Below are positions 2,109 to 20,019 of a stretch of DNA of 32,000 bases, piece after piece. Made by a program: the position numbers and the translations under genes. Numbering within the stretch: position 1 is the stretch's first letter; each line of letters begins with the position of its first letter. The stretch spans positions 840,001 to 872,000 of the forward strand of contig NC_016070.1 in NCBI RefSeq assembly GCF_000253055.1, read 5' to 3'. The notes under the pieces are model-generated. The model searched no databases and had not been told where the DNA came from. It worked only from the letters and a program-made list of their open reading frames with translations. Source of the DNA: Thermoproteus tenax Kra 1 (GTDB lineage: Archaea > Thermoproteota > Thermoprotei > Thermoproteales > Thermoproteaceae).

Positions 2109-2128
2109 CCGATCTGTTGAACGTCCAA

Positions 2129-2954: not shown

Positions 2955-3170
2955 CGGCAAGCTTCGCCCTTTAGGGCGGGGCCGGATTTAGGCTAGCGTC
3001 TATGGCAGAGCAATAAAGAGAGGGGTCTAATAACGCGCTCCATGCTCCAGCTGCAGCACGCTAACCCCAGAGAGTGGCAACGGGCGAGATCCCCATTGTG
3101 GAGGTTCCACATGAGCGTGGAGGGGATCGTAATGTTTTTATCAACATTGCGATGAACGCCTATGAGTCCG
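2955..3170 (+). repeat. Decayed copy (b) of the GC-rich promoter-bearing repeat unit (candidate ncRNA, + strand)
   Basis: It has the palindrome CGCCC-TTTA-GGGCG at 2965-2978, the box GGATTTAGGC at 2984-2993, and the conserved ATGGCAGAG at 3002-3010, which is followed by TAA after 3 sense codons. Positions 3042-3103 are homologous to the reverse complement of 21465-21522. The unit ends in the hairpin AATGTT-TTTATC-AACATT, which includes a T5 run (about 3131-3148). Confidence 0.5.
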
Positions 3171-3258
3171 ACCGAGCTCTTCAGAAGCCACGACGACTAC
3201 ACCGATAATAGGGAGTGTGCGCAGAGCGGCCGACCGATGTGCGGCCGTGATTAGGAGC

Positions 3259-3834: not shown

Positions 3835-3876
3835 GTCGGAAGCAGAGCGGCGAGGGCCTCACTGGCGTGTTGAGGA

Positions 3877-6345
3877 TCATTTTTCCAGGCGGGAGAGTCT
3901 GTCGAGCAACTTCCTATACTCATCCTTCAACCTCTCTACCTCCTCTCTGAGCCTCTGGTATTCCGCGCCCCTCTCTTGGGCCCTCCTTATCTTCTCGATG
4001 ACTTCGCGCGCCATCCTTCTGATTCTGCCGTCGACGTCCTTCTCTGCAGTCTCCTGTAGCTGAGGCAGTAGGCGCGGATCAAGTAGCTCCAGAGCGGCAG
4101 TCACGGCGGCCGCCCTAATGCGGTAGCTCTCATCCCTCAAGCTCCTAGTCACAACTTCGATGACCTCGCGGCGCGGACCGAACTTGGCCAAGGCCTGTAC
4201 CGCAGTCATCCTTATCCATGTGGGCTGATCCTCAGAGGCGTATCTGAGTACTATGGCGAGCGCCTCCTCAGTGCCCAACTCGGCGAGTCCCTCTATTGCT
4301 CCGCGCGTTATAATGTCCATGTGGCCTCCGTAGCTTAACGCTCTCTTCAAGCTATGCTCAGCGAAAGCCCACTTTATCTTCCCAAGGGACTTAGCGGCCT
4401 CGTACCTTACGTAATAGCTCTCGGAGCTATCGTGGAGTATGCGGTCTAGGAACTCCGCAGCCTCAACTCTTCTTGCCGTCCCCAACGCCTCAACGATGGC
4501 CCGGCGCGCGCGAGGGCTTTTGACATCTTTATATGCTTCAATTAGGGCCTCGACGGCCTCCCTCGTGCCAATATGCCCTAGAGCCCTGGCGGCCTCAGCG
4601 ACGACCCCCCAGAAATTGTCGCGGAGCGCCCCCCTTAGATATTCTACGGCCTTCCTGCTGCCGTTCTTTCTGAGGCCCTCGACAGCTTGAATTCTGCAGT
4701 AGAGGTTCTCGTCTCTGAGCATTGTTCCAAGGACCTCTACGGGATAATTTACATCGACCACTTTCAACAGCTTGAACTCCGGATCGATGCAAACATATTT
4801 GATCCCCGGCTCAAGGTGTATCTCGACCCTCTTTTCGTTGAAGTTTATAGTTCGCCTCTCCCTCCTTGTCTCATACACTAAGTCGATTTCTAAAGGCAAA
4901 GTGTATAGGGGATAGCTGTCGTCGCCTTGAGCCTGCTCCAACACTAGACGCAATCCGTTGTTTTTGTTCCAAACGGCCTTTATGACTGGGTGGCCCGCCG
5001 AGTAGAAAAACTGGCGCCAGAGCCACTCTAGGTCGGCGCCGCTGGCCTCCTCCAAGCTCTTCCTCAGATCCTCTATATCTGCGTTTTTGTATTGATATTT
5101 AGTCAAGAAGAGCTTTAGGCCCGCTCTGAAGGCTCCATCGCCCAAAATGCTTCTGACCATATGTAGCACTACGGAGCCCTTTTCGTACGAGTGTCTATCG
5201 AACATCTCCTCAGGTAAGGCGTATAGGTTTACGACTATGGGACGCGCATAGCGGGACGAATATTCGTTTAGATACGTCTTGAGATTAGAATATATCTCAT
5301 ATAGATATTCCTCCCTGCCCTTAGAGCGCTCAGTCCACAGTGCCTCTATGAACGTAGCGAACGATTCGTTGATGGCTATATGGCTCCAGTCCTTTGCGGT
5401 GACCAAGTCTCCGAACCACTGGTGGGCCATCTCGTGCGCTACGAGGGGGTCCGATGTGAAGTCCTCGTTCGCACACGGAAACTCATCGTAGGGACAGTGG
5501 GCGTGTTTGTCATGGAGCGTCCAGTCGGTCAATATCGTGGCTGTGGCGTTCTCCATTCCGCCATAGATGAACTCTTGTACCACTATCTGGGCGTATCTCT
5601 CGTAGGGGTACGGAACTCCGAGGTATTCCGAGAAGAACTTCATTATGTCGCAAGTATGGTAAAAGGTGTGACGGGCTAGGCCAGCGCGCCCCCTGGGCAG
5701 ATAGTACTCCAACTCTACATCGCCACACCTCTCTCTTAAGATCTCAAAGTCTCCGGCAGCGAACGCTATGAGGTACGGAGACATGGGATGCCTCATTTCC
5801 CACACGTATGTCACCGCATCGCCGAGATCCCTCCTCTCTTGCAACACGCCGTTGCTGACGGCTACATACGGCTTTCTGACCGTAATGGCTAGACTAAAGG
5901 GGAATTTGATGTTTGGCGAATCAGGCAGAGGCAGCCAATATCTATTGTCCTCGGCCTCGCCTTGGGTCCAGACCATGGGCACTCTATAGGGATGGCCTCT
6001 GTCGGGCTTGACAAAGTAGAGCCCCTTCCTGGGCTTCGCCATATAAGCCACCTCGACCTCGCCCTCCTCGCCTGCGCGCAGCTTCAGTTCCAGCGACAGA
6101 GTCTCTCCATCGTAGCTGTACTGCGTAGACGCGCGCAGGACTTCTAGCTCCACCGCATCGAGCGCGATGGTTGCGAGATCTCTTTTAGCCCTAATCTTGT
6201 ACCTAACCGATCCTTTGATCGCAGCGTTATCGAAATCGACCTCCACGTTGGCCCAGAGCTTAAGGACGTCGAAGTCGTATTTGCGCGGGAATCTGGGGAG
6301 ATATTCCGGGAAGGCGAAATCCCTGCCCAGGAGATATTTGCTCAT
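3877..6345 (-). CDS. M1-family aminopeptidase (aminopeptidase N / tricorn-interacting-factor-like) with C-terminal HEAT repeats
   Basis: It carries the GGMEN exopeptidase motif, the HEMAHQWFGD zinc site plus the downstream NESFATF glutamate, and a C-terminal third made of repeated HEAT-like helices (…AVEALG…, …AAKSLG…, …AIEGLA…). Confidence 0.93.
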   Translation of the reverse strand: MSKYLLGRDFAFPEYLPRFPRKYDFDVLKLWANVEVDFDNAAIKGSVRYKIRAKRDLATIALDAVELEVLRASTQYSYDGETLSLELKLRAGEEGEVEVAYMAKPRKGLYFVKPDRGHPYRVPMVWTQGEAEDNRYWLPLPDSPNIKFPFSLAITVRKPYVAVSNGVLQERRDLGDAVTYVWEMRHPMSPYLIAFAAGDFEILRERCGDVELEYYLPRGRAGLARHTFYHTCDIMKFFSEYLGVPYPYERYAQIVVQEFIYGGMENATATILTDWTLHDKHAHCPYDEFPCANEDFTSDPLVAHEMAHQWFGDLVTAKDWSHIAINESFATFIEALWTERSKGREEYLYEIYSNLKTYLNEYSSRYARPIVVNLYALPEEMFDRHSYEKGSVVLHMVRSILGDGAFRAGLKLFLTKYQYKNADIEDLRKSLEEASGADLEWLWRQFFYSAGHPVIKAVWNKNNGLRLVLEQAQGDDSYPLYTLPLEIDLVYETRRERRTINFNEKRVEIHLEPGIKYVCIDPEFKLLKVVDVNYPVEVLGTMLRDENLYCRIQAVEGLRKNGSRKAVEYLRGALRDNFWGVVAEAARALGHIGTREAVEALIEAYKDVKSPRARRAIVEALGTARRVEAAEFLDRILHDSSESYYVRYEAAKSLGKIKWAFAEHSLKRALSYGGHMDIITRGAIEGLAELGTEEALAIVLRYASEDQPTWIRMTAVQALAKFGPRREVIEVVTRSLRDESYRIRAAAVTAALELLDPRLLPQLQETAEKDVDGRIRRMAREVIEKIRRAQERGAEYQRLREEVERLKDEYRKLLDRLSRLEK

Positions 6346-6392
6346 AGGAGAGAATCAGCAAATCAATATTAGCGTTGCGCATAGGTATGACT

Positions 6393-6428
6393 CCTGCCCT
6401 AAAGGGCGAGGCTTTCAGGTGTAATAAC
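6393..6428 (-). repeat. Solo copy (c) of the palindromic repeat in the divergent aminopeptidase/PhoH intergenic region
   Basis: The + strand reads CCTGCCC-TAAA-GGGCGAGG-CTTTCAGGTGTAA. The tail TTCAG(G/T)TGTAA is shared with copies at 13843-13856 and (reverse complement) 2129-2140. It is about 55 nt upstream of the aminopeptidase ATG and directly upstream of the PhoH TATA box AACTTTTAAAC. Confidence 0.75.
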
Positions 6429-7572: not shown

Positions 7573-7847
7573 AAACAAGACTGCATCTATTCATAAAAGG
7601 AGAACTGGATCTGCCAGGCGTTCCTTTTCGTCAGATTATGAGGGAGGTGGCTAGAAGAAATAGGGTTACAGGTTGGGTCAGATTTCTCGACGGAGAGACC
7701 GCCGAGGCCGTCCTTGAGGGCGAGGAGAGGGACGTAGATGCAGTTCTGAGGTGGGCCTATGCCGGTCCCCAAGGCACAAAGGTGAGGGAGGTCAAAATAA
7801 TCAGAGAGACTTACACAGGCGAGTTCTCCGACTTCACTATAAAATAA
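7569..7847 (+). CDS. Acylphosphatase-like protein with a degenerate active-site signature
   Basis: The fold-level signature GWVR...DG..EAVLEGEE..V...L.W...GP....V..V...E.YTGEFSDFTI matches acylphosphatases. The phosphate loop reads IKGELDLPGVPFR (2-residue insertion) and the GWVRN Asn is Phe (GWVRF). A GTGA overlap joins it to the PhoH stop. Confidence 0.7.
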   Translation: MKTRLHLFIKGELDLPGVPFRQIMREVARRNRVTGWVRFLDGETAEAVLEGEERDVDAVLRWAYAGPQGTKVREVKIIRETYTGEFSDFTIK

Positions 7848-8421
7848 AGGAGAGTGCTGTGTATATTGCAAAACCTACCGCCAGATGTGCAAGGTACGGG
7901 AGCCCGTATTTGGCAACTACGTATTCCTCGTCCACGTCAGCCGGCGGCCTATACTTCTCCAGATCGTGGACGTCGCCGACTATGTACTTCACGCCGCCTC
8001 TGAGAAGCTCGTCGCGTGATACACAGACGTGGGTCAACCTCTGTAAAGGCGTCATTCTGCAGGGCCTGCGGGAGTTGAGGTAATAGAGCCAGAGCATAGT
8101 GCCTACAATAGAGAAGGCGGTTCCCATGACGACCACGGCCGGAGTGGGAAAGTAGGGTGCAGGAGGCGGGAATAGCGATATAGCCAGCAAGGCCAGAGAG
8201 TCGGCGTAGCCAGCGCCCATCGCCCTCATGGCTAGGGCCAACATTGCGCCGAGTACAGGCGACATCAGATAGAGCGGGGCAGTCCACGAGAGATATGCAG
8301 CAAGTGCGGCGGGCAGATACATCGCCAAGATGATCCATACGTCGATCTCCCTGGTCTTGAGGTCTTGGCGTGCGGCAATTGAGAGGAGGACGAGCTCGGC
8401 CAGGATAAGAGCCTTGATCAC
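7837..8421 (-). CDS. Polytopic membrane protein, probably an A24-family (prepilin/preflagellin peptidase-like) aspartic protease
   Basis: The N-terminal TM is followed by ARQDLKTREID (first Asp context). MGAGYADSLAL is an atypical version of the GxGD motif. A soluble insertion is present, and the final TM has LPYLAHLAVGF. The match is by motif pattern only. Confidence 0.45.
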   Translation of the reverse strand: MIKALILAELVLLSIAARQDLKTREIDVWIILAMYLPAALAAYLSWTAPLYLMSPVLGAMLALAMRAMGAGYADSLALLAISLFPPPAPYFPTPAVVVMGTAFSIVGTMLWLYYLNSRRPCRMTPLQRLTHVCVSRDELLRGGVKYIVGDVHDLEKYRPPADVDEEYVVAKYGLPYLAHLAVGFAIYTALSFIL

Positions 8422-9314
8422 AGCCTCTGTTTAATTAAATCTATCCTCGGCGTTTTGAGAGGATCAATGCCTCTCTCCAGGGCCAACTTAGCTGTAGCTA
8501 ACCCCACGTGCTTCAAGAAAGTTAGTACGCCGCCTATAGTCATGTCGACTTTAAACAGCTCTCCGCCCACTAGATCCACAGTGATCTCCACTCGCCGTCT
8601 GTGCTCAAGCGGAATTTGCTCGCTCGTCAGAGCCATCAGGGGGCTGGAGGCCCCTTCTATCCAGTTGTGGTGGGCCTCAGGCAAGATCTCGACAGGCGAG
8701 TCCATCTTGGCGTTCTCGTTAATCTCATTCTTCACGCGGTAGGCGACGCCCTGCATAGAGGCTGGCGCCACGATAGTGGGCCTTCTGGATATCACAGACT
8801 TAAGTCTCTCCTCCAAGGCTGAGTCGTAGGGTAGAGAGTCCGGCAAAGCGAACTCGATCCCATAGATCCTCCTTAGGACCCAGAGGGCGGCCGTGAACAT
8901 CTGCGGCAGAGCTGCACGAGGCGCCGAGGCCTTTGGCACCCTTATTGTGGGGATGCCCAACTCCGCCAATCTACCGCCGGTAGTTATCGCGACGACGGGA
9001 ATCCCTCTGCGCAGAGCCTCTTGGGCGGCCGTTATGGTCTCTACGGTATTCCCCGAGTATGAGACTGCGATCATCAGCCCCCGCCTGCCCCTAAAGAAGT
9101 AGTCCTTCACCACCACGACGTCGAAAGGCCAGTCGTACAGAGCCGAGAGATCCCTCAAGAGATCTCCCACGACGCCCGACCCGCCCATGCCGGCGACGTA
9201 GACTCTATCGTCTGGCCCTATCTCATAGCGTCTGCCACCTACGTCGTACTTCAGCTCGAAGTCGGGCGCTCTGCGCAATATATACTGCTCCCAACGCATA
9301 TAATCTTCTATCAT
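8418..9314 (-). CDS. pgi: Bifunctional phosphoglucose/phosphomannose isomerase (SIS domain, crenarchaeal PGI/PMI type)
   Basis: Long stretches match the P. aerophilum PGI/PMI as I recall it: VSYSGNT.ET, AITTGGRLA..G.PT..VPKASAPRAALPQ, GVAYRVKNE.NENAK, VEILPEAHHNWIEG, TPRID. Confidence 0.9.
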   Translation of the reverse strand: MIEDYMRWEQYILRRAPDFELKYDVGGRRYEIGPDDRVYVAGMGGSGVVGDLLRDLSALYDWPFDVVVVKDYFFRGRRGLMIAVSYSGNTVETITAAQEALRRGIPVVAITTGGRLAELGIPTIRVPKASAPRAALPQMFTAALWVLRRIYGIEFALPDSLPYDSALEERLKSVISRRPTIVAPASMQGVAYRVKNEINENAKMDSPVEILPEAHHNWIEGASSPLMALTSEQIPLEHRRRVEITVDLVGGELFKVDMTIGGVLTFLKHVGLATAKLALERGIDPLKTPRIDLIKQRL

Positions 9315-9343: not shown

Positions 9344-11311
9344 GTGGCTCTCCGTCTTTCTGTGCGTTTTCGCGTTGTAATAAACGGCGTTGAGGTCGTC
9401 AGAGAGTGGAGTTGGGACAAGATATTGAGCGTTAAAGAGGAGTTGAAAAGAATGGGCTTTAGATGGACCGGCGATGGATGGGTGGGTAGAGTGCGCGACC
9501 CAATGCAGCTCTATACTTTAAGGACGCTCTTAGATCTCACAGACGACGAGCTCGGAAGGCTACAACAGACGGTCCAAGCGCCTCGAGGCGACGTAGTGAT
9601 GGTCGTCGGCGAGATACCCGAAAAGCTGAGGCCCTACGTCGTTGCGAGCTACGGCGCCTCAAGCGTCGTATCAGTCTCCAGATTTATCAGAGACTTCGTG
9701 TCCTCCGACAAGACCGCGATAGCACAATCGCAGTCCTACGAGGACTACGTAAGGAGGGCTGCAGAAGAGTTCAGAGCGCTGTTGAGAGGGCTGGACGTGC
9801 GCGGCGATCTGAAAAGCGCTATAGACTCGGCGATTGAAATTGCGTTGAGCTCGGAGAGGCTCAAATCGCTCTATGAGCGCAGAGTGGCGTGGAGAACCGT
9901 CGAGTTGGGCCCCACCTCAGCGGCTTTGAACTTCGCCAGCAAGGAGTTAGTAGACGAGCTGAGGTCGTTTAAGCTGGCCTACAATATTGTTGGAAAAAAC
10001 GGCGAGGTGAAGCAAACGTTTATACAATTAGTGAAGGTTTCAAGAGATAAAGAAAAGATAATATTGAAATATCCTATATTTCTCCGGAATAAAATATCAG
10101 AAATCTTAAAAAAGTATGGATATATTACTAAGATATCAGATATATCATATAAGAAACTGAGCTATAGGAGCTCGGTCAGGTTGTTGGAGTTCCAGAGAGC
10201 AGCGCTAGAGGCGTGGATCAAGTCGGGCTACCGCGGGACTGTGGCGGTGCCCACCGGCGGAGGAAAGACCTTTATAGGGCTGGGGGCTATGGCCGAGACA
10301 GGCGAGGCCACGTTGATACTCGCAGTGACAAAGGAGTTGGCTTTGCAGTGGATAGAGAGGGTAAGGAAATACCTCGGCGTCCAGGCAGGCCTACTAGGGG
10401 GCGGAAGCCACGATGTGAGAGATGTCACGGTGGCTATTTATAATTCGGCGGTAAAGTATATAGACGAGCTCATGAACAGATTCGGCCTGGTAATCTTCGA
10501 CGAGGCCCACCACGTCCCGGCTGAGACGTTCAAGGAGGTGGCTCTGGCTCTGGACTCGCCGAAGAGGTTGGCGCTCTCGGCGACGCCCAAGAGGGACGAT
10601 GGGAACGAACTGTTGATCTTCGAGGCGGTGGGCCCCCTAGTCTTCAGAGCGTCCTACAGAGAGATGATAGAGGCAGGTTTGGTAGTGCCCATAGAGCACT
10701 ACAGAGTCTACGTCAGATTGACGCCGGAGGAGGAGTCTGAGTACAAATCCGCCGAGAGGTCCACTGATAATGCCATTGTTCTCAGGAATATAGCCGCTCA
10801 AGCCTCAGCCAAGATACAAGCGGCCATTGATATAATTAAACGGGAAGTGTCTCTGGGCCACAAAGTGATAGTGTTTACCCAATTCTTGGAACAGGCCAGG
10901 GCAATATATCAGCGGTTAACGGAGCACCAGATACGCGCCGAGCTGATAACTTCGGAGGAGAGGGACAGAGACGCGGCTTTCGCTCGCTTTGCCTCAGGCC
11001 TAGTGCGCGTGGTGGTGACCACCACAGTGTTGGACGAGGGAGTCGACGTGCCTGACGCGGACGTTGCAGTGGTAGTCAGCGGTAGCGGCTCAAAGAGACA
11101 GATGATACAGCGAGTGGGCAGAATAGTGAGGGCATCCCAAGGGAAAAGCGTCGGACGAGTCTACGAGCTGGTGGCGAGAGGGACAATTGAGGAGGCTCTA
11201 TCGGAGAGTAGACACGTGGACGACATAGTAGAGGAGAGCGTATGCAAAAGGCTTTCTGAGAGCGCGCTTAGAGAGTTCCTGTCTAAGACATCGTTGTTAG
11301 AATACAAATAA
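9344..11311 (+). CDS. XPB/Rad25-type SF2 DNA helicase with a ~280-aa N-terminal extension
   Basis: Helicase motifs are present: AVPTGGGKTF (I), IFDEAHH (II), LSATPKRDDG (III plus RED-like RDD), VLDEGVDVPD (V), QRVGRIVR (VI). The start is uncertain. GTG 9344 gives the maximal ORF, but GTG 9362 fits a leaderless start better. Confidence 0.8.
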   Translation: MALRLSVRFRVVINGVEVVREWSWDKILSVKEELKRMGFRWTGDGWVGRVRDPMQLYTLRTLLDLTDDELGRLQQTVQAPRGDVVMVVGEIPEKLRPYVVASYGASSVVSVSRFIRDFVSSDKTAIAQSQSYEDYVRRAAEEFRALLRGLDVRGDLKSAIDSAIEIALSSERLKSLYERRVAWRTVELGPTSAALNFASKELVDELRSFKLAYNIVGKNGEVKQTFIQLVKVSRDKEKIILKYPIFLRNKISEILKKYGYITKISDISYKKLSYRSSVRLLEFQRAALEAWIKSGYRGTVAVPTGGGKTFIGLGAMAETGEATLILAVTKELALQWIERVRKYLGVQAGLLGGGSHDVRDVTVAIYNSAVKYIDELMNRFGLVIFDEAHHVPAETFKEVALALDSPKRLALSATPKRDDGNELLIFEAVGPLVFRASYREMIEAGLVVPIEHYRVYVRLTPEEESEYKSAERSTDNAIVLRNIAAQASAKIQAAIDIIKREVSLGHKVIVFTQFLEQARAIYQRLTEHQIRAELITSEERDRDAAFARFASGLVRVVVTTTVLDEGVDVPDADVAVVVSGSGSKRQMIQRVGRIVRASQGKSVGRVYELVARGTIEEALSESRHVDDIVEESVCKRLSESALREFLSKTSLLEYK

Positions 11312-11317
11312 AATTTC

Positions 11318-11497
11318 GTGGAGACAACTGAGGCTTGGCTCTATCTGAGCTTGGAAACTGTTATCGGGATTATAATTTTATCAATAATAGGTATAATAGT
11401 AATAAATATTTTTAAAAATATAAATCAATTATATAATTATATAGAGAATGATATAAAATATATATTAAATACAACAAGATTGATTATAAGGATATGA
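11318..11497 (+). CDS. Small hydrophobic ORF 1 of the AT-rich island (59 aa, not in the ORF track)
   Basis: I translated it by hand: VETTEAWLYLSLETVIGIIILSIIGIIVINIFKNINQLYNYIENDIKYILNTTRLIIRI. It has one TM segment, and its TGA overlaps the next ATG (ATGA at 11494-11497). The start codon is uncertain (GTG 11318 or TTG 11351). Confidence 0.35.
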   Translation: METTEAWLYLSLETVIGIIILSIIGIIVINIFKNINQLYNYIENDIKYILNTTRLIIRI

Positions 11498-11610
11498 GAC
11501 TTCTATATCAAATATTAAAAATAATTTTAATATTATTTGAAATAATAATACTATATGATATACTAATTCAATTTAAAATGCTCTTATCTTTGTTTCGATG
11601 GAGTCCATAA
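11494..11610 (+). CDS. Small hydrophobic ORF 2 of the AT-rich island (38 aa)
   Basis: I translated it by hand: MRLLYQILKIILILFEIIILYDILIQFKMLLSLFRWSP. It overlaps ORF 1 by 4 nt and ORF 3 by 13 nt. Confidence 0.3.
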   Translation: MRLLYQILKIILILFEIIILYDILIQFKMLLSLFRWSP

Positions 11611-11870
11611 CTGAGTTAATCTTTATAATTTTTATATTATTATTTCTATTACTAATCTATTATTTAATTTTAAAATTAATATTTAATATATCATTAATAA
11701 AATATAAATTTATTTTATCAAGATATGCTGTTTGTGGCGCTAACTATACTTTTACTTATTATTCGAATGAGTATAATATCTCTGCGGTCAAGGCGTGTTT
11801 AAAAATTATAGTGTTTTCCAATGGCTCCTACGCTGTTTCAACGGCTTACCTTTATGTGAGATCACGATGA
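11598..11870 (+). CDS. Small membrane-anchored ORF 3 of the AT-rich island (90 aa)
   Basis: It has an N-terminal TM helix (LIFIIFILLFLLLIYYLILKLIF). The Tyr/Ser-rich tail has 2 Cys and four N-x-S/T sequons. A 90-codon open frame in such AT-rich DNA is unexpected by chance. Confidence 0.45.
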   Translation: MESITELIFIIFILLFLLLIYYLILKLIFNISLIKYKFILSRYAVCGANYTFTYYSNEYNISAVKACLKIIVFSNGSYAVSTAYLYVRSR

Positions 11871-12132
11871 AGGTAGATCAACGGATTAAGGCGATCAGAA
11901 TCGTCTAGCTTCTTCACACATCGTCTATCGGCCGGACTTCGTCATTAGGATGCACCGTTTATTCGCCTTAAATTTTTAACTTCTCTTTAAAAATAACGTT
12001 ATTACTATATTAAACTATTATTTTTTATTATATTATTATGATTTAATTTAATTACTAAATAGAAAAATTAATTGATTATTATTTATGATCAAGAATACGT
12101 TAAATTAAAAAATATAGCACAAATTAGGCGCT

Positions 12133-12474
12133 ATGGCTGAGGGGAAGGACTTATCACAATTTCAGAGGGTGGTGATAGACCAAGACCTATGTATATCGTG
12201 CGGCGCTTGCGTTGCAGTCTGCCCCTGGCAAGCCCTCGAATTGGACGAAAACGCTAAGGCGAGGCTCATCTGGGAGAAGTGTTACGACGACTTTAGCTGT
12301 GTGGCCGCCTGCCCCGTTAAGTGTATATATAAGGTCAGCGAGGCGCCGGAGGACGCCAAAAAGAAGCCTAACTGGTACAGACTTGGCAGACAGCTATCGC
12401 CGGACGAGCAGAAGATACTCCAGAGCTGGAAGGCCAAATACGGCATACAAGTGGATCCACTGCCTCCAAGCTGA
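12133..12474 (+). CDS. Dicluster ferredoxin-like protein with a C-terminal extension
   Basis: It has CISCGACVAVCP (CxxCxxCxxxCP) and CYDDFSCVAACP (CxxDxxCxxxCP, the Asp-for-Cys variant typical of 3Fe or Asp-ligated clusters). A TATA-like box lies about 25 nt upstream. Confidence 0.85.
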   Translation: MAEGKDLSQFQRVVIDQDLCISCGACVAVCPWQALELDENAKARLIWEKCYDDFSCVAACPVKCIYKVSEAPEDAKKKPNWYRLGRQLSPDEQKILQSWKAKYGIQVDPLPPS

Positions 12475-12583: not shown

Positions 12584-13315
12584 GTGGACGAGCTGAGGGA
12601 AGTGGCCGACCTGTTAAATAGATCTAATTGCGCTGTAGCGCTCACTGGTGCCGGCGTCTCGACTCCCAGCGGAATTCCGGACTTTAGAGGACCTCAAGGG
12701 CTCTGGAGAAGAATAGATCCACGGAGGTTCGAGATTGCGTACTTCTATGCGCATCCCGGCGAGGTCTGGAGGTTGTTCGTGGATACGTTTCTTGCTCAAG
12801 CTGAGGCTAAGCCTAACCCTGCTCATCTGGCCTTGGCCGAACTAGAGGCCAAGGGGAAGATCTGTGCGGTGATAACGCAGAACGTCGACGGTCTGCATCA
12901 GAGGGCTGGCTCCAAGAGAGTGATCGAGCTACACGGCTCTTTGCGATATGCAGTATGTACGTCATGCGGCGCAAGATTTCCACTCTCAGAGGTCCTTAAA
13001 GGCCCTATAGACGATGCGCCGAGATGTAGAGTATGTGGCGGCGTGTTGAAGCCAGATGTGGTATTCTTTGGGGAGCCGTTGCCCTACGAGGCTCTACAAG
13101 ATGCAATGATGTTGGCGGAGCTCTCGGATGTATTTATGGCGATCGGAACATCTCTAGCGGTGGCGCCGGCCAATAGGTTGCCGTTAATAGCTAAAAGAAA
13201 GGGGGCAAAGTTGGTGATAATAAACCAAGACCCCACGGAGCTTGACGAATTCGCCGATATTATAATAAGAGGTAAAGTTGAAGAAATCTTGCCGCGCATA
13301 GCGGAGCTGATATGA
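12584..13315 (+). CDS. cobB: NAD-dependent protein deacylase, Sir2 family
   Basis: Motifs present: GAGVSTPSGIPDFRG, TQNVDGLH, ELHGS, and the zinc ribbon CxxC...CxxC (CTSCG...CRVCGG). The GTG start is about 22 nt after the GCATTTTAAAGGC box. The stop codon lies inside repeat copy (d). Confidence 0.93.
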   Translation: MDELREVADLLNRSNCAVALTGAGVSTPSGIPDFRGPQGLWRRIDPRRFEIAYFYAHPGEVWRLFVDTFLAQAEAKPNPAHLALAELEAKGKICAVITQNVDGLHQRAGSKRVIELHGSLRYAVCTSCGARFPLSEVLKGPIDDAPRCRVCGGVLKPDVVFFGEPLPYEALQDAMMLAELSDVFMAIGTSLAVAPANRLPLIAKRKGAKLVIINQDPTELDEFADIIIRGKVEEILPRIAELI

Positions 13316-13876
13316 CCGCGCTCCCCGCCCTAAAGGGCGGGGTTTCTCCTCGTCCACGCCTTCATCGGCATCCAAGATACCTCCGGCGTGAGCTCATTGG
13401 GCATGGGGCCGGGCGGCACGCCTCTATCCCTCTCGGCGTGGACGTGCTGCGTCCGCCTTCGACGTACAGCCCTATCCAGCGCCCGGCCAGCGCCTCCCCA
13501 GGCCTCTGCGGAGGCCTTCGGCGGCCCCAGACGTCGGCTCTGTACTCGCTCAGCCCCTCATACGCCGCGTATTTGGGACAGCCCGCGTAGACCTCCGACG
13601 CGGCCTCCCGGAGCATCCCGGCGGGCCCTCCGATCGCCGTATATCCGCAGTGCCCCTCCCCCGTCCTCCAGGACGCCCTTAGTCTGGGCCGCCCCATCCA
13701 CCGCTGGGCCGCCCCTCGTTGGAGCTCGCCCCCCGCGCGGGGCCCGCCCCTGCTCCTCCCTCTTTTTCTGTCATCTTCGCTAACTTTGCCATGAAAAATA
13801 CGCCAATCGGCTTAAATCCATCCCCCATCCTAAAGGGTGGGGCCTTCAGTTGTAAGCGGTGGATGTAGGAGCCCAT
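13312..13876 (-). repeat. GC-rich repeat unit A (candidate structured ncRNA on the minus strand), bounded by two copies of the palindrome
   Basis: Palindrome (e) is at 13822-13842, the box GGATTTAAGCC at 13819-13809, ATGGCAAAG at 13792-13784, and palindrome (d) at 13323-13342. The 5' ~120 nt is homologous to unit B. Positions 13345-13410 are homologous to 26785-26850. Only broken ORFs are present (37 codons, then a 111-codon ORF in another frame). Confidence 0.55.
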
Positions 13877-14005
13877 CTATATCAAACTCTCCGTAGGACG
13901 CCGGTCTCCACGCCCGGGGCTGTGGCTTCGGGCACACGGCGAGCCCACCTGTGAAGGCCGGCGTCGTGAAAGGGAAGTTGCCGAATGTCCGCTAAATCGA
14001 CTCAT

Positions 14006-14560
14006 TCATTTCGGCTCTAAGGTCGCGTGTTCACAAATTATCTTGAACGGACGCCTTGTCTCCAGCGATCTCTCCACGCTCTCTCTAAGGGCATCTATAT
14101 TTATACAACCTATGGCGCGACCCCCCTCCAATAACTTCAGAGCCTCAGAGGCCAGAAACACGAACTTATCGGCTGCCCCCTCCTGTAGCTTCACATAGGC
14201 GGCAGCCAAAATTATCAGCCCTTGAAGCCGGCCATCTCTGCTCTTTCTCCACAGAGGCTCCAACTCGGCGTGCGCCTCCCAGAACCTCTCCTCGTTGAAC
14301 AGTTGGACAAATCGGGCGATGTCTCCAGACCCTATGCGCTCCTCGTTCGTTATATCGATGATGTAGCGCACAGATCCCAATGTAGTCTCGATCCTCTCCT
14401 TGCCCCATTCTGGATCCACATCGCCTAGTACGAGCTCTATATGTTCTGAGGCCACTCTCACATTCAATACAGGCAAAACGCTCCGGAGCTCTCGCAGAAG
14501 CTTGGGTCTATCGCTCGGCGTATGACCACTATTATCAACTATATATAGATATCTCTTCAT
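14006..14560 (-). CDS. DUF309-domain protein (last gene of the six-gene operon)
   Basis: The C-terminal half (FNEERFWEAHAELEPLWRK...LQGLIILAAAYVKLQEG) matches the DUF309 signature as I remember it. The N-terminal ~80 aa are unassigned. The start overlaps the upstream stop (TAATG). Confidence 0.65.
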   Translation of the reverse strand: MKRYLYIVDNSGHTPSDRPKLLRELRSVLPVLNVRVASEHIELVLGDVDPEWGKERIETTLGSVRYIIDITNEERIGSGDIARFVQLFNEERFWEAHAELEPLWRKSRDGRLQGLIILAAAYVKLQEGAADKFVFLASEALKLLEGGRAIGCINIDALRESVERSLETRRPFKIICEHATLEPK

Positions 14561-14892
14561 TAAATTTTAACTAATATCTTCTTTAATTCTATTTGTAAAT
14601 CAACAATTACTTTTAGATCTCCATATGTTTGTTTTATACGTCTAACTTGTGCCAGTGCTCTATTTATTTGCTCCACTAAAGGCGTGTTATCCGGCAGGGG
14701 ACCGCCTGCGTAGAGCTCAACGCCCTCCCCCAGTTTTAGCTCTACGCCGAACGCTCTGGCAAGCTCGACAAATTTATGAAATCGTTCCTCTAAAGCCTCC
14801 AACGTCCCTCTGCTGTCGCGATATCTCTCAGCATATTCCTTTAGGCTCTCGAGCATCCTCTCCAATTCGCTGAGCGAGAGGAAGAGCGTCAT
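14560..14892 (-). CDS. Hypothetical helical/coiled-coil protein (110 aa), operon gene 5
   Basis: It has an ATGA overlap with the upstream gene and a TAATG overlap with the downstream gene. No motif was recognised. The C-terminal codons lie in an AT-rich patch. Confidence 0.6.
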   Translation of the reverse strand: MTLFLSLSELERMLESLKEYAERYRDSRGTLEALEERFHKFVELARAFGVELKLGEGVELYAGGPLPDNTPLVEQINRALAQVRRIKQTYGDLKVIVDLQIELKKILVKI

Positions 14893-15320
14893 TCCGACCC
14901 TATGAAATAGGCTATCTCTATATTCTTAACGCAGAACTTTATGAACTCAGGCGTCACCTCTTTACAGCCTAGCTTGTTGATCTCCACCTCGGGCTCCTTG
15001 ACCGACTCTGAGGGCTTTATCTTGGGCAACGGCGGAAACAGCTCCGGGAGTCTCTCGGGAGTTATATATGCTCTATTGGGCTCTATAACTATCGAGTAGT
15101 CCTTGAGATCCAGTTTTTGAGCCATATCGGTGGCGGCCACCACTATCTCCATTATCTCATTGAAGGCGGCATAAAGATGGCCCATCGAGCCCAGCTGGAT
15201 TAAGTATTGTCCAATCTGGCGCTGGCGCCCCAATAGGGTCGGAGTAGCCTCTATGACTTTCTGGAGCTCTCTCAGCCTCCACAGAACTTGATCGACGTTT
15301 TCCGAACTTATTATTATCAT
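14889..15320 (-). CDS. Hypothetical protein (143 aa), operon gene 4
   Basis: It has ATGA overlaps at both ends. No motif was recognised. Confidence 0.6.
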   Translation of the reverse strand: MIIISSENVDQVLWRLRELQKVIEATPTLLGRQRQIGQYLIQLGSMGHLYAAFNEIMEIVVAATDMAQKLDLKDYSIVIEPNRAYITPERLPELFPPLPKIKPSESVKEPEVEINKLGCKEVTPEFIKFCVKNIEIAYFIGSE

Positions 15321-15454
15321 AGGATTATTCTAATTCCGTTTTCTAGAGGTTGGATATATACATATTCATTTTCACCTAATATCTTTATCAAAATATCTTT
15401 TATATCTTGATCTATTGTGAGAGAAGATACTTTAACTTTTCTGAGGGACTTCAT
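15317..15454 (-). CDS. Hypothetical micro-protein (45 aa, not in the ORF track), operon gene 3
   Basis: I translated it by hand: MKSLRKVKVSSLTIDQDIKDILIKILGENEYVYIQPLENGIRIIL. It exactly bridges the two flanking genes with ATGA overlaps at both ends. Confidence 0.5.
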   Translation of the reverse strand: MKSLRKVKVSSLTIDQDIKDILIKILGENEYVYIQPLENGIRIIL

Positions 15455-17628: not shown

Positions 17629-18312
17629 ATGCGCGCTCTGATCCTCGCCGGAGGTTTCGGCAAGAGGCTCGCCCCCCTCACCAACGAGGTACCCAAGCCA
17701 CTCGTGCCCGTGGCCGGGAAGCCCATCCTCGTCAGACAGATCGAGTGGCTGAGGGAACAAGGAGTGACCGACTTTGTCGTGGCCGTCGGCTATCTGCGCC
17801 ACAAGGTCTTCGAGGCGCTGGGCGATGGGAGGAAGTATGGAGTGAGGATATTCTACAGCGTCGAGGAGGAGCCCCTCGGCACAGGGGGCGCCATAAAGAA
17901 CGCGGCGCCCTTTCTGGAGGACGACGTGTTCCTGGTCACCAACGGCGATGTGTTGACCAATCTGCGCGTGGAGCCCCTACTGAGGGCGCTCGAGGGCGCC
18001 GACGCCGCCATAGCCCTCGTCCCCCTCAGAAGCCCCTACGGCGTAGTGGAGATAGACGGCGAGGGGCGCGTGCTGGCCTTCAGAGAGAAGCCCGTGCTGG
18101 AGCACTACATCAACGCCGGCGTCTACGCCATGAGGAGGGAGGCGCTCAAGGATCTCCCCGACAGAGGCAACATAGAGGAGACGTTGTTCCCCAGATTGGC
18201 CGAGAGGAGGAGGCTGAGGGCCGTGGTCTATAAAGACGCCTTCTGGCGCTCCATAGACACCCTCAAGGATTTAGAGGAGGCTGAGAAGATGTTGAGCGAT
18301 GGAAAATCTTGA
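17629..18312 (+). CDS. Sugar-1-phosphate nucleotidyltransferase
   Basis: [32 protein letters not shown] is the classic NTP-transferase N-terminus, and EEPLGTGGA is also present. The TATA box GTATATAAAAATAG lies about 25 nt upstream. GTG 17623 is an alternative start. Confidence 0.88.
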
Positions 18313-18937
18313 AGACCTACTCCTGAAATACGCCTTATTGAACGCAGTTAAGTACGGAGGCAGAGCCGACGCTAAGGCAGTGATGTCTAAGTTGATGGCC
18401 GAAAGAGCGGATCTGAGGCCAAGGGCGCGCGAGATAAAAGAGCTTGTGGAACAGCTGGTGGCCAAGGTAAACGCCATGAGCCCTCAGGAGCAGTATACGC
18501 TCTTGGCATCGCGCTGGCCTGAGGCTCTGGAGGAGAGGAGGCCCAGGGAGGAGAAAAGGCCTGGAATCGACTCGCTTCCCGCGCTTCCAAACGCTGAGAG
18601 GGGCGTCGTGGTCCGCTTCGCACCCAACCCAGACTTCGTCCTACATCTCGGCAGCGCGCGGCCGGCCGTGCTCAACTACGCCTACAAGCTGAAATACGGA
18701 GGCAAGTTCATACTTAGGTTCGAAGACACAGATCCCAAGATAAAGAGGCCGTTGATAACGGAGGAGGTTAACGCCTATGAGGCAATAAGGGAAGATCTGA
18801 GGTGGCTCGGCGTGAAGTGGGATGAAGAGTACATTCAATCGCAGCGTATGGAGATATACTACGAATATGCGAGAAGGCTCATCGAGTTAGCGGAGCCTAC
18901 GTGGACACTTGCAAGACCGAGGAGTGGCGCAAGCTGA
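18299..18937 (+). CDS. gltX: Glutamyl-tRNA synthetase, N-terminal segment (frame 1 of a frameshifted gene)
   Basis: It has the archaeal GluRS N-terminal helical domain plus the class I catalytic start [21 protein letters not shown] (HIGH-type HLGS). Homology ends at ...YARRLIEL, and 15 non-homologous codons follow before the stop. Confidence 0.85.
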
Positions 18938-20019
18938 GGAACGCGGGTAAGGCGTGCCCCCACAGAGGGCAGTCGGTGGAGGAGAACTTAGAGCTCTGGG
19001 ACAAAATGCTGAGGGGGGACTTCAGAGAGGGCGAGTCGGTGCTCAGAGTGAAGACAGACTTGACGCACCCAGACCCCAGCGTGAGGGACTGGGTGGCTTT
19101 CAGGATCATAGACGTCGAGAGGAACCCGCACCCTCTAGTCGGAGCTAAATATCACGTGTGGCCCACTTACAACTTCGCCGTATCTATCGACGACCATCTA
19201 ATGGGTGTGACGCACGTGCTCCGCGCGCAAGAACACAGCGTGAACACAGTAAAACAGTCCTTCGTCTTCAAACACTTCGGCTGGACCCAGCCGGTGACTA
19301 TACACTTCGGCAGACTGAAGGTGGAGGGCGGATCTCTCAGCAAGTCTAAACTGAAGGCCCTTAAGTTGCGATACGACGATATAACTATGCCGACCTTGGC
19401 AGGGCTCAGGAGCCGCGGGATCCAGCCGGAGGCAATATGGGAGCTCATACTGAGCGTTGGGATCAAGCCCTCCGACGCGACAGTATCCCTTGCTAACCTC
19501 TTCTCTATCAATAGAAAGATTTTGGACCCGAAGGCGGACAGATATATGTTTGTCCCCGAACCCGTGAAGTTGGTTATCAACCTGCCCAAGAGGATCGTTG
19601 CGAAGATACCGGTGCACCCCAGCTTCCCGGAGAGGGGCCATAGAGAGTACGAGCTAGGCCCCGGGGAGGTCTCACTGTATATCTCCAGGAAGGACGCCGA
19701 ACTAGGCTCCTTTAGGCTAATGGAGTTGGCCAACGTAGTTGTGCGCAGAAAAGAGGGAGATGTATACTACGGAGAGGTGGTCGGATATACGATAGACGAG
19801 GCGCGCGAGGCGAAGATGCCCATAATCCAGTGGACGCCCGATAATTCAAGGGAGGCGGTCGTGATAAGGCCTGTGGCCGCCGGCAAGAAGGCCGTCGAGA
19901 GAGGCCTCATAGAGCCTGGCGCCGAGACTCTGAGGGAGGGCGATATAGTACAGTTCCTTAGATATGGATTTGTCAAATTGGGCTTCCAGAGACACTATGG
20001 AGTTCATATATATCCACGA
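18892..20019 (+). CDS. gltX: Glutamyl-tRNA synthetase, remainder (second frame); no stop codon before the DUF354 ATG
   Basis: [25 protein letters not shown] continues the GluRS sequence. [26 protein letters not shown] and an LSKSK (KMSKS-type) motif are present, with the C-terminal [11 protein letters not shown]. This frame is open from 18826. The listed ORF 18901..21000 continues in frame into the next gene. Confidence 0.85.

What the first reader, a model, noticed from the sequence alone, without database searches (positions are those of the whole stretch)
11312..12130. Very AT-rich 0.8-kb island tiled by three overlapping small hydrophobic ORFs
Immediately after the XPB-like gene the composition collapses. 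I count 5 G/C in the 60 nt at 11381-11440, whereas the flanking genes are clearly G+C-rich. Stop codons should be very frequent in such DNA, at roughly one codon in ten by a crude base-frequency estimate. Even so, three same-strand ORFs tile 11318-11870 without a gap. The first is 59 aa (11318-11497). The second is 38 aa (11494-11610), with an ATGA overlap. The third is 90 aa (11598-11870), with a 13-nt overlap. Each has a strongly hydrophobic TM-like segment. The 90-aa product also has a Tyr/Ser/Cys tail with four N-glycosylation sequons. A second AT-rich block (11960-12125) follows a short normal-composition spacer. The pattern suggests a recently acquired cassette from a virus, plasmid or AT-rich donor that encodes membrane micro-proteins. 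Possible roles include toxin or holin-like proteins, immunity proteins, or pilin-like proteins. I see no class III signal-peptide motif.
Basis: partly seen in the sequence, partly recalled or inferred. Interest (0 to 1): 0.65.

Follow-up and report, generated by a model that had tools for sequence, protein, structure and literature searches.

The report
Conserved AT-rich membrane micro-protein operon
The AT-rich island is not recently imported DNA: it is an old three-gene operon for tiny membrane proteins shared by Thermoproteus and Pyrobaculum that has become extremely AT-rich only in Thermoproteus, followed by a known methylation-guide small RNA gene and a promoter region.

Summary
Window 11312-12130 (Thermoproteus tenax Kra1, genome about 851.3-852.1 kb) falls to 13-25% G+C in a roughly 55% G+C genome. 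Three same-strand ORFs tile 11318-11870, which shuffles almost never reproduce (P <= 0.0005).

The three ORFs are real genes for single-pass membrane micro-proteins. I found them, with the same order, sizes, GTG/ATG/ATG start codons and coupled start/stop junctions, in five other AT-rich lineages. Three of those five are syntenic Thermoproteus loci lying between the XPB-like and ferredoxin genes. The other two are short, unplaced metagenome contigs. The same trio also occurs at normal G+C (52-54% in P. neutrophilum) in two Pyrobaculum genomes, about 2 kb from XPB. The cassette is therefore ancestral, not recently acquired. I found no viral or plasmid relatives.

The extreme AT content includes third codon positions (GC3 0.13-0.25, against 0.55-0.70 in neighbouring genes). 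It is a local, Thermoproteus-type compositional state that the amino-acid composition has followed.

The "normal-composition spacer" is the published C/D box sRNA Tte-sR119, on the opposite strand. The second AT block is the divergent promoter region for sR119 and the ferredoxin gene.

The function of the trio is unknown: Pfam, NCBIfam, PHROGs, PADLOC, PDB and Foldseek gave nothing. My best guess is a small heteromeric membrane complex with a glycosylated, disulfide-bonded ectodomain.

The parts
11318..11497 (+). Micro-protein gene 1 (TTX_0982, 59 aa, GTG start 7 nt after the XPB stop codon). The product has an acidic N-terminus (M-x-x-x-E5), one transmembrane segment and a C-terminal 'DIKYM' amphipathic tail.
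   Evidence: ORF listed. Named TTX_0982 'hypothetical protein' in the genome paper's table. Orthologues in L006, L007, L009, L011, L012, L008 and L013 are aligned. A Pyrobaculum versus Thermoproteus pairwise BLASTP gives E = 5e-7.
11494..11610 (+). Micro-protein gene 2 (38 aa, ATG within an ATGA overlap with gene 1). The product has an invariant M-R N-terminus, one transmembrane segment and a conserved Phe near the C-terminus. No TTX_0983 entry appears in the stored text of the published T. tenax gene table.
   Evidence: ORF listed. 35-38 aa orthologues are present in all eight lineages. The search of the supplement found TTX_0982 and TTX_0984 but no TTX_0983 (that file was cut when stored).
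11598..11870 (+). Micro-protein gene 3 (TTX_0984, 90 aa). The product has an N-terminal transmembrane helix with Glu5/6, then a domain of about 50 residues with two invariant Cys and several N-x-S/T sequons.
   Evidence: ORF listed and named in the table. The AlphaFold2 model has a helix at 2-43 plus a three-stranded sheet, mean pLDDT 72. A profile-profile comparison with the Pyrobaculum pair gives E = 1.7e-4.
11887..11950 (-). C/D box sRNA gene Tte-sR119. This is the 'normal-composition spacer'. On the minus strand the boxes are C ATGACGA, D' ACGA, C' GTGAAGA and D CTGA, with guides of 14 and 12 nt.
   Evidence: My box-and-spacing pattern matches the core at 11895-11945. The orthologous element matches in L006, L007 and L011, and nothing else matches in 240 kb scanned. 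The exact 64-nt sequence is listed as TtesR119, with 44,390 reads, in Additional file 1 of PMC4644070.
11951..12132 (.). AT-rich divergent promoter region between sR119 (transcribed leftwards) and the ferredoxin gene TTX_0985 (rightwards, ATG at 12133).
   Evidence: G+C is about 0.25. On the minus strand TTAAAAAT lies at -29 to -22 from the sR119 5' end. The promoter role is an inference from that position. An AT-rich block upstream of the ferredoxin gene is also present in L006, L007 and L009.

Best explanation
The island has three ordinary components.

**(1) The micro-protein operon, 11318-11870.** This is an ancient, vertically inherited operon of three translationally coupled genes (GTG/ATG/ATG starts; junctions that overlap by 1-17 nt or abut). 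It encodes three single-pass membrane micro-proteins of about 55, 36 and 80-98 residues. It is conserved in Thermoproteus and Pyrobaculum. I infer, but have not shown, that the three products assemble into one small membrane complex. In that complex protein 3 would expose a small Cys-bridged, N-glycosylated beta-domain outside the cell, and proteins 1 and 2 would be its transmembrane partners.

In the Thermoproteus-type lineages the operon's DNA has shifted to 10-34% G+C at all three codon positions. The proteins are constrained mainly for hydrophobicity and a few key residues. They could therefore follow the DNA, with Ala/Val/Leu/Gly replaced by Ile/Phe/Leu(TTA)/Asn/Lys/Tyr. That the shift is a local compositional change in an orthologous operon is shown. 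Its cause is not. It could be local AT-biased mutation with weak selection, or selection for AT-rich DNA or RNA.

**(2) The spacer, 11887-11950.** This is the expressed C/D box methylation-guide sRNA Tte-sR119, on the minus strand.

**(3) The second AT block, 11951-12132.** This is the shared promoter region of sR119 and the ferredoxin gene.
For: **Source of the window.** The window is T. tenax Kra1, genome position = window + 840,000. The contig size of 1,841,542 bp agrees.

**Distribution of the trio.**
- It lies between XPB and ferredoxin in T. uzoniensis, in two Thermoproteus MAGs and in a near-identical strain.
- It is also on two short AT-rich contigs.
- It is on the opposite strand, about 2 kb from XPB, in P. 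neutrophilum and a P. aerophilum-like contig.
- Start codons are GTG/ATG/ATG in seven of the eight lineages. The L011 gene-1 start was not pinned down. Lengths and gene junctions are kept throughout.

**Evidence for coding.**
- Tiling by open frames has P between 0/3000 and 15/3000 in each of the six AT-rich lineages taken separately.
- pS is 0.5-0.8 (largely saturated) while pN is 0.32-0.44 among Thermoproteus pairs and between the two Pyrobaculum, and up to 0.55 between the genera. Frames are intact throughout.
- The four within-species differences in the island are all base substitutions, at the same density as in XPB.

**Homology across genera.** ORF1 gives BLASTP E = 5e-7. ORF3 gives profile-profile E = 1.7e-4 with both Cys aligned.

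**Composition.**
- Trio G+C is 0.10-0.32 and GC3 mostly 0.13-0.38, with two genes higher (L007 gene 1, L009 gene 2). Flanking genes have G+C 0.51-0.57 and GC3 0.55-0.73.
- The P. neutrophilum trio has G+C 0.52-0.54 and GC3 0.58-0.68.
- The FLIMNKY fraction is 0.62-0.65 in Thermoproteus against 0.43-0.53 in Pyrobaculum, at equal hydrophobicity of 0.55-0.59.

**Membrane character.** It does not depend on AT content. The Pyrobaculum products also have one transmembrane segment each (Kyte-Doolittle mean 2.3-2.9). Their ORF3 has three sequons at corresponding positions in both species.

**sR119.**
Against: **Function.**
- No function could be assigned. There were no hits in Pfam, NCBIfam, PHROGs, PADLOC or PDB sequences. 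Foldseek found nothing with E <= 0.001.
- The beta-domain models are of low confidence, with pLDDT 45-80.
- Complex formation and outside-facing topology are inferences. The charge distribution of ORF3 (acidic N-side, basic C-side) would by the positive-inside rule favour the opposite topology.
- No expression data for the three genes were available to me.

**Homology.** The ORF3 link across genera is statistically modest when taken alone. A pairwise BLASTP found nothing.

**Cause of the AT-richness.**
- Other genes in the window keep GC3 of 0.55-0.70, so simple genome-wide mutation bias does not explain why this operon differs.
- Polymorphism density in the island is not elevated (only four sites).
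Confidence: 0.72

Rival explanations
1. One reading: a recently acquired cassette from a virus, a plasmid or an AT-rich donor, encoding toxin-, holin-, immunity- or pilin-like micro-proteins.
For: G+C and codon usage deviate strongly from the host genome. The products are small hydrophobic proteins with no known family.
Against: - The locus, gene order and frames are the same in Thermoproteus species whose XPB is only 67-70% identical.
- Orthologues at normal G+C occur in Pyrobaculum.
- Viral contigs, phage records, plasmid records, PHROGs, PADLOC and BFVD gave no relatives.
- There is no tRNA gene and no repeat pair that brackets the island. No integrase-like family turned up among the window ORFs I scanned.
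Confidence: 0.03
2. A non-coding structural AT-rich element, such as a replication-origin unwinding element or a spacer, in which the ORFs are accidental.
For: It is very AT-rich and easily melted DNA in a hyperthermophile. The origin of T. tenax has not been located, according to the genome paper.
Against: - Open frames are kept in eight lineages despite saturated synonymous divergence and about 10% stop-codon frequency in the other frames.
- The Pyrobaculum orthologues are not AT-rich at all.
- The genome paper places cdc6 at about 1.6 Mb and the only ORB motif at about 58 kb, whereas this locus is at 851 kb.
Confidence: 0.03
3. The genes are real, but the AT-richness is itself selected in Thermoproteus at the DNA or RNA level. 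This rival overlaps with the best explanation; it differs only on the cause of the AT content. One version is a built-in attenuator: T-runs and rare codons keep expression of membrane-active proteins very low when they are read through from XPB. Another version is an easily melted or chromatin-free zone that serves the neighbouring sR119 and ferredoxin promoters.
For: - AT content is extreme even at synonymous sites, while neighbouring genes keep GC3 of 0.55-0.73.
- It persists in six lineages whose synonymous sites have turned over.
- The AT trough is centred on gene 2 and the 5' part of gene 3, and its left edge varies. Gene 1 has G+C 0.49 in L007, 0.32 in T. uzoniensis and 0.23 in T. tenax.
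- Gene 1 starts 7-15 nt after the XPB stop, which leaves little room for a promoter of its own.
- Two T5 runs lie inside the operon and none in XPB.
Against: - No direct evidence exists.
- L009 lacks the sR119 element but is equally AT-rich.
- Pyrobaculum manages with normal G+C.
- Other short AT-rich patches occur in the window, for example inside XPB at 10021-10160. This suggests a more general tendency of weakly constrained sequence to drift towards AT.
Confidence: 0.3
4. The trio is a set of leaderless pilin-like or pseudopilin-like proteins, or accessory membrane components, of a type IV filament system. It would be functionally tied to the nearby A24 prepilin peptidase (TTX_0979) and to the TFF subsystem-4G locus that ends at TTX_0973.
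For: - Proteins 1 and 3 begin with a short segment carrying an invariant Glu at position 5 or 6, followed directly by the hydrophobic helix. This resembles mature Flp, TadE or type IV pilins (the comparison itself is from my own knowledge).
- The ORF3 model is a long N-terminal helix plus a small beta-sheet.
- UniRef names the P. neutrophilum ORF3 orthologue 'TadE family protein'.
- An A24 peptidase gene lies 3 kb upstream in T. tenax (E = 6.7e-4). In the Pyrobaculum contig it lies in the same neighbourhood, about 5 kb from the trio.
- TTX_0973 belongs to arCOG05616, the adhesin hallmark of TFF subsystem 4G.
Against: - No member shows a conserved class III signal peptide or the G/XXXXEY motif.
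- No member hits the Pfam TadE, Flp or pilin families even at E <= 10.
- Foldseek found no pilin structures.
- Housekeeping genes separate the trio from the peptidase and from the TFF locus.
- No ATPase or platform gene is adjacent.
Confidence: 0.12

Closest known systems
Archaeal C/D box sRNAs: Tte-sR119 (T. tenax) and Pca-sR48 (P. calidifontis)
   Same: The 64-nt element at 11887-11950 (minus strand) is identical to the published TtesR119 sequence. It has canonical C, D', C' and D boxes with 12-14-nt guides. Its D guide (AGCTAGACGATT) matches that of P. calidifontis sR48 (GGCTAGACGACA).
   Different: Nothing differs; this part of the island is already known. The published table labels its strand 'pos', but the sequence given is the reverse complement of the window's + strand.
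Type IV pilin-like proteins, and TadE/Flp pseudopilins with class III signal peptides
   Same: Proteins 1 and 3 have a short N-terminus with Glu5/6 followed by a hydrophobic helix. Protein 3 is predicted as a long helix plus a small beta-domain with a Cys pair and sequons. An A24 peptidase and a TFF locus are in the wider neighbourhood. UniRef gives one orthologue the name 'TadE family protein'.
   Different: There is no leader peptide and no conserved [KR]-[GA] cleavage motif. There are no Pfam TadE, Flp or pilin hits and no structural match. The trio is not adjacent to an assembly ATPase or platform gene.
AT-rich horizontally acquired genomic islands (xenogeneic DNA)
   Same: Locally very low G+C and codon usage far from the host norm.
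   Different: The position and content are conserved across a genus and beyond, and orthologues exist at normal G+C. There are no mobility genes and no repeat pair bracketing the island. No foreign relatives were found.
Accessory membrane micro-proteins of larger complexes (for example KdpF, CydX, Ost4; from general knowledge)
   Same: Single-pass proteins of 30-60 residues, encoded in translationally coupled operons and constrained mostly for hydrophobicity.
   Different: No partner complex is encoded beside them, and there is no sequence similarity to any such family.

Membership tests
Archaeal C/D box sRNA (for 11887-11950, minus strand) | C (RUGAUGA-like), D', C' and D (CUGA) boxes, with guides of about 12 nt and a short D'-C' loop | tested here: met
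   ATGACGA / 14 nt / ACGA / TGT / GTGAAGA / 12 nt / CTGA. The same architecture is found in L006, L007 and L011. The pattern matched nowhere else in 240 kb.
Archaeal C/D box sRNA (for 11887-11950, minus strand) | Expressed as a stable small RNA | not testable with these tools
   No read data were available here. The literature provides it: TtesR119 is listed with 44,390 reads in Additional file 1 of PMC4644070.
Archaeal C/D box sRNA (for 11887-11950, minus strand) | Guide complementarity to an rRNA or tRNA target (N+5 rule) | not tested
   No T. tenax rRNA sequence was at hand. The D guide is shared with Pca-sR48.
Type IV pilin / TadE / Flp-like proteins | Class III signal peptide: a charged leader and a [KRDE][GA] cleavage site before the hydrophobic helix, or the Flp G/XXXXEY motif | tested here: not met
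   A regular-expression scan of 24 proteins found only two sporadic, non-conserved matches and no Flp motif. The patterns were written from memory of FlaFind and the Flp literature.
Type IV pilin / TadE / Flp-like proteins | Sequence membership in pilin families (Pfam TadE, Flp or archaeal pilin models) | tested here: not met
   No such family hit any of the members scanned at E <= 10 for ORF1 and ORF3, or at E <= 1 in the six-protein scan that included ORF2.
Type IV pilin / TadE / Flp-like proteins | 'Lollipop' fold: a long N-terminal helix packed on a beta-sheet, similar to solved pilins | tested here: inconclusive
   The AlphaFold2 models show a helix at 2-43 (or 3-50) plus 2-3 strands, but pLDDT in the beta part is 45-80. 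Foldseek against the PDB had a best E of 2.0 and no pilins among the listed hits.
Type IV pilin / TadE / Flp-like proteins | Encoded with, or dependent on, a TFF assembly ATPase, platform protein and prepilin peptidase | tested here: inconclusive
   An A24 peptidase gene lies 3 kb upstream and a TFF-4G adhesin gene 9 kb upstream. PGI, XPB and other housekeeping genes lie between them and the trio. No ATPase or platform gene is nearby.
Horizontally acquired genomic island | Absent from the orthologous site in related genomes | tested here: not met
   The trio is present at the same site in T. uzoniensis and in two Thermoproteus MAGs, and near XPB in two Pyrobaculum genomes.
Horizontally acquired genomic island | Mobility hallmarks (integrase, tRNA target, flanking direct repeats) or relatives in mobile elements | tested here: not met
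   There is no tRNA gene and no repeat pair brackets the island. No integrase-like family appeared among the window ORFs scanned. No viral or plasmid relatives were found.
Archaeal replication origin | ORB elements flanking an AT-rich unwinding element, usually next to orc1/cdc6 | tested here: not met
   The ORB consensus gave two matches in the window at up to 2 mismatches, both far from the island (19826 and 25009), against 1.8 expected by chance. The genome paper places cdc6 at about 1.6 Mb and the only ORB at about 58 kb. The region is protein-coding.

The most novel reading that the evidence does not exclude
The trio is an unrecognised membrane module, found across Thermoproteus and Pyrobaculum, that belongs to the type IV filament world. 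It would consist of leaderless pilin-like proteins that insert without prepilin processing and work with the neighbouring A24 peptidase and TFF-4G system. In addition, its DNA in Thermoproteus would be kept extremely AT-rich by a self-reinforcing process that applies to hyperthermophiles. AT-rich DNA breathes at around 86 degrees C, so its cytosines deaminate faster, which drives it further towards AT wherever proteins are constrained only for hydrophobicity.
Probability: 0.1. Interest if true: 0.7.

Novelty: new member of a known kind. Interest (0 to 1): 0.4.

Why it matters
**An unnamed protein family.** The result shows that three very small ORFs are genuine, conserved genes. One of them has no entry in the T. 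tenax gene table text I could search. The gene calls stored with the T. uzoniensis and one MAG locus also miss it. These genes define a family of membrane micro-proteins, seen so far only in Thermoproteus and Pyrobaculum, that has no Pfam or NCBIfam model. For annotators, this is a warning that AT-rich "gaps" in GC-rich hyperthermophile genomes can hide real genes.

**A compositional shift within one operon.** The same operon has about 52% G+C in Pyrobaculum and 10-30% in Thermoproteus-type lineages, inside genomes of roughly 55% G+C. The amino-acid composition has been dragged along with the DNA while hydrophobicity stayed constant. This makes it a compact natural test case for how mutation bias, thermal DNA stability and protein constraint interact.

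**A correction to the recent-transfer reading.** A reading based on composition alone would have been wrong here.

Tried and rejected
**Leads that went nowhere**
- **Replication origin or unwinding element.** The ORB consensus gave only chance-level matches, none near the island, and the genome paper places cdc6 and the only ORB elsewhere. Rejected.
- **Viral or plasmid origin.** I searched IMG/VR with the ORF3 profile, ran blastn of the island and tblastn against phage records, tblastn against plasmids, and scanned PHROGs and BFVD by Foldseek. All were negative.
- **Defence-system proteins.** PADLOC gave only one weak hit, Csx28 at E = 0.0076 for one Pyrobaculum ORF1, which I treat as noise.
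- **Known families.** Pfam, NCBIfam and PDB sequence searches found nothing meaningful.
- **Structure.** Foldseek against the PDB had a best E of 2.0. The second model, for the P. neutrophilum protein, was too poor to search with.
- **Rfam.** There were no gathering-level hits in the window. E-value scans gave only sub-threshold HgcC-like hairpin hits outside the island.
- **A wrong guess of mine.** I thought the GC-rich gap at 13316-14005 might be the permuted Thermoproteus SRP RNA. That gene lies between TTX_0683 and TTX_0684.

**Searches that were wasted or blocked**
- The search for related loci on genome contigs with XPB returned only irrelevant bacterial helicases.
- The metagenome scans added only a contig whose match is 100% identical to the L013 ORF3.
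- The exact-protein look-up for Vulcanisaeta XPB failed, so I could not test for the trio outside Thermoproteus and Pyrobaculum.
- Pairwise BLASTP of ORF2 and ORF3 across genera is uninformative. The case for homology rests on ORF1, the ORF3 profile comparison and the shared operon architecture.
Full report
**1.
- Between the XPB-like helicase gene (9344-11311) and a ferredoxin gene (12133-12474), G+C in 200-nt windows falls to 0.135-0.225 across 11300-11799. It recovers to 0.35-0.40 around 11700-11999 and falls again to about 0.25 across 11900-12199. The flanking genes are at 0.52-0.60.
- The three + strand ORFs have exactly the reported coordinates and overlaps.
- In this stretch 7-12% of codons in any frame are stops. 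Even so, 99% of 11318-11870 is covered by + strand open runs of at least 36 codons. That was reached in at most 1 of 2000-5000 shuffles that keep local composition.

**2. Where the window comes from.**
- The best named relatives of the helicase are from Thermoproteus uzoniensis (67% identity) and Pyrobaculum (55-59%).
- The window's own ORF3 sits on a 1,841,542-bp contig.
- The gene table of the T. tenax Kra1 genome paper matches the window coordinate for coordinate, with genome position = window + 840,000:

| Gene | Window position | Annotation |
|---|---|---|
| TTX_0979 | 7837-8421 (-) | A24 prepilin peptidase |
| TTX_0980 | 8418-9314 (-) | PGI |
| TTX_0981 | 9344-11311 | XPB |
| TTX_0982 | 11318-11497 | ORF1, hypothetical |
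| TTX_0984 | 11598-11870 | ORF3, hypothetical |
| TTX_0985 | 12133-12474 | ferredoxin |
| TTX_0986 | 12584-13315 | Sir2 |

- The search of the stored table text found no TTX_0983, so ORF2 seems to have no published entry.

**3. The trio is conserved, so it is neither accidental nor recent.**
- I fetched the DNA around XPB orthologues. T. uzoniensis (L006), two Thermoproteus MAGs (L007, L009) and a 99%-identical strain (L005) all carry three tiled ORFs directly after XPB and before the ferredoxin gene. Their sizes are 54-60, 36-38 and 88-90 aa.
- A profile search of 1.84 billion representative proteins found only a handful of further ORF3 relatives. Two of them lie on short AT-rich contigs that again carry the whole trio (L011, L012).
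- Pyrobaculum neutrophilum (L008) and a P. aerophilum-like contig (L013) carry a 54-55, 36 and 79-81 aa trio on the opposite strand, about 2 kb downstream of XPB.
- Start codons are GTG, ATG, ATG in seven of the eight lineages. I did not pin down the L011 gene-1 start. The genes overlap by 1-17 nt or abut, which suggests translational coupling.
- Homology across genera is supported in four ways:
  - ORF1 gives BLASTP E = 5e-7 over its full length.
  - ORF3 gives profile-profile E = 1.7e-4 with both invariant Cys aligned.
  - ORF2 has the same MR(x)L(Y/F)H N-terminus.
  - The operon architecture is identical.
- Synonymous sites between lineages are largely saturated (pS 0.5-0.8). pN is 0.32-0.44 within each genus, about 2.5 times that of XPB but still below pS.
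- In each AT-rich lineage taken separately, the open-frame tiling is improbable, with P between 0/3000 and 15/3000.

**4. Composition.**

| Lineage set | Trio G+C | Trio GC3 | Flanking-gene G+C | Flanking-gene GC3 |
|---|---|---|---|---|
| Six AT-rich lineages | 0.10-0.32 | mostly 0.13-0.38 | 0.51-0.57 | 0.55-0.73 |
| P. neutrophilum | 0.52-0.54 | 0.58-0.68 | 0.52-0.57 | 0.69-0.72 |

(flanking-gene values exist for four of the six AT-rich lineages, because L011 and L012 are too short to carry flanking genes)

- There are two exceptions among the AT-rich lineages. L007 gene 1 has G+C 0.49 and GC3 0.49. L009 gene 2 has GC3 0.43.
- Synonymous choices are shifted wholesale. Leu is TTA in 17 of 30 codons, against 8% in reference genes. 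Phe is TTT in 11 of 11, Asn is AAT in 10 of 11, and Lys is AAA in 8 of 9.
- Amino-acid composition has followed the DNA. The FLIMNKY fraction is 0.62-0.65 against 0.43-0.53, while overall hydrophobicity is unchanged at 0.55-0.59.
- The left edge of the AT trough differs between lineages. Gene 1 has G+C 0.49 in L007, 0.32 in T. uzoniensis and 0.23 in T. tenax.
- The AT-richness is therefore a DNA-level state that arose or spread within the Thermoproteus-type lineages. It is not a donor signature.
- Its cause is open. Other short AT-rich patches exist in the window, including one inside XPB at 10021-10160. This fits AT-ward drift wherever constraint is weak.
- No other gene here has low GC3, however, and polymorphism density in the island equals that of XPB (8.6 per kb, only four sites).

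**5. The rest of the island.**
- Downstream of ORF3, a stretch of about 50 nt at normal composition is conserved in T. tenax, T. uzoniensis, L007 and L011.
- On the minus strand it has C, D', C' and D boxes at canonical spacing. My pattern matched only this element in 240 kb of sequence.
- It turned out to be published. The 64 nt at 11887-11950 (minus strand) are identical to TtesR119, a C/D box sRNA detected by RNA-seq with 44,390 reads (PMC4644070, Additional file 1).
- Its D guide matches P. calidifontis sR48.
- A TATA-like TTAAAAAT lies at -29 to -22 from its 5' end.
- The second AT block (11951-12132) is therefore best read as the divergent promoter region of sR119 and the ferredoxin gene. 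L007 has an extra ATP-cone gene inserted there.

**6. What the proteins are.**
- Each has one strongly hydrophobic segment in every lineage, including the GC-normal ones. The membrane character is therefore not an artefact of AT-rich codons.
- ORF1 has an invariant M1, E5, L8 and Y9 and a C-terminal 'DI(K/E)(Y/H)M' helix.
- ORF2 is little more than one transmembrane helix with an invariant M-R start.
- ORF3 has Glu5/6, a transmembrane helix, an invariant Tyr, two invariant Cys, and sequons. Three of the sequons are at corresponding positions in both Pyrobaculum species.
- AlphaFold2 predicts a long helix plus a small sheet for ORF3, with only moderate confidence.
- Nothing matched in Pfam, NCBIfam, PHROGs, PADLOC, PDB sequences, or Foldseek against the PDB or BFVD.
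- My working model is a small heteromeric membrane complex that displays the ORF3 ectodomain. This is an inference from operon coupling and from these protein features.

**7. The pilin lead.**
- UniRef calls the P. neutrophilum ORF3 a 'TadE family protein'.
- An A24 peptidase gene lies 3 kb upstream, and it is also in the neighbourhood in Pyrobaculum.
- The window starts inside TTX_0973 (arCOG05616), the adhesin hallmark of archaeal TFF subsystem 4G.
- Against membership: there is no class III signal peptide or Flp motif, no pilin-family hit, no structural match and no adjacent ATPase or platform gene. I keep it as a minority rival.

**8. Verdict.**
- The finding is real and now largely explained. 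It is a conserved but uncharacterised micro-protein operon, a known sRNA gene and a promoter region.
- The recent-acquisition reading is refuted.
- What remains interesting is the function of the trio, and why this one operon became so AT-rich in a GC-rich hyperthermophile.

Noticed in passing
window 2143-2162, 2962-2981, 6392-6411, 13323-13342, 13823-13842, 21652-21671: A GC-rich hairpin, CCCCGCCC-TAAA-GGGCGGGG, occurs six times in the window at up to 3 mismatches, against none expected by chance. All copies lie in gaps between my gene calls. No Rfam family matches apart from sub-threshold HgcC-like hits. It may be a dispersed terminator-like or REP/MITE-like element.
   Followed up: partly
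window 13316-14005 and 21441-21826: Two unannotated gaps have 66-70% G+C. They share a repeat of about 150 nt (13690-13880 versus 21530-21710) and have no Rfam match. The 690-nt gap is absent in T. uzoniensis, L007 and L009, where the Sir2 gene abuts the DUF309 gene. A related 67-nt stretch lies just after XPB in P. neutrophilum (L008 7226-7292). It is not the permuted SRP RNA, which lies between TTX_0683 and TTX_0684.
   Followed up: partly
window 7837-8421 (-) and 84-2108 (+): TTX_0979 is a sub-threshold Peptidase_A24 (prepilin peptidase) match. TTX_0973 is the arCOG05616 adhesin-like protein that ends a putative type IV filament (subsystem 4G) locus. The neighbourhood of A24, PGI, XPB and the trio is kept in Pyrobaculum (L013 5781-6392 is the A24 gene).
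   Followed up: partly
L007 7582-7869: One Thermoproteus MAG has an extra 92-95 aa ATP-cone gene. It is inserted between the sR119 orthologue and the AT-rich ferredoxin promoter block, and is absent in T. tenax, T. uzoniensis and L009.
   Followed up: no
window 10021-10160, 14521-14650, 15311-15440, 23971-24150: There are other short patches with G+C below 0.25. One lies inside the XPB coding sequence, in a Lys/Ile-rich segment that is conserved as protein in T. uzoniensis.
   Followed up: no
window 11494-11610; L006 7134-7244; L007 7140-7250: The 36-38 aa middle gene has no TTX_0983 entry in the stored text of the published T. tenax table. It is not among the gene calls stored with the T. uzoniensis and L007 loci, although it is conserved in all eight lineages. 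It looks like a systematically missed gene.
   Followed up: yes
L003, L004 and L005 contig ends (window about 11778-11823): Three independent Logan assemblies of near-identical strains all break inside the AT-rich island. Such islands are likely to be under-represented in short-read assemblies.
   Followed up: no
window 18299-18937 and 18901-21000: The class I Glu/Gln-tRNA synthetase catalytic domain is split over two overlapping ORFs in different frames. The second ORF continues without a stop into a DUF354 domain. This could be a frameshift, a sequencing error or a fusion; I did not examine it.
   Followed up: no
L009 4268-4459: This Thermoproteus MAG lacks the sR119 element between ORF3 and the ferredoxin gene, although its trio is equally AT-rich. 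The AT state therefore does not depend on the sRNA gene.
   Followed up: partly
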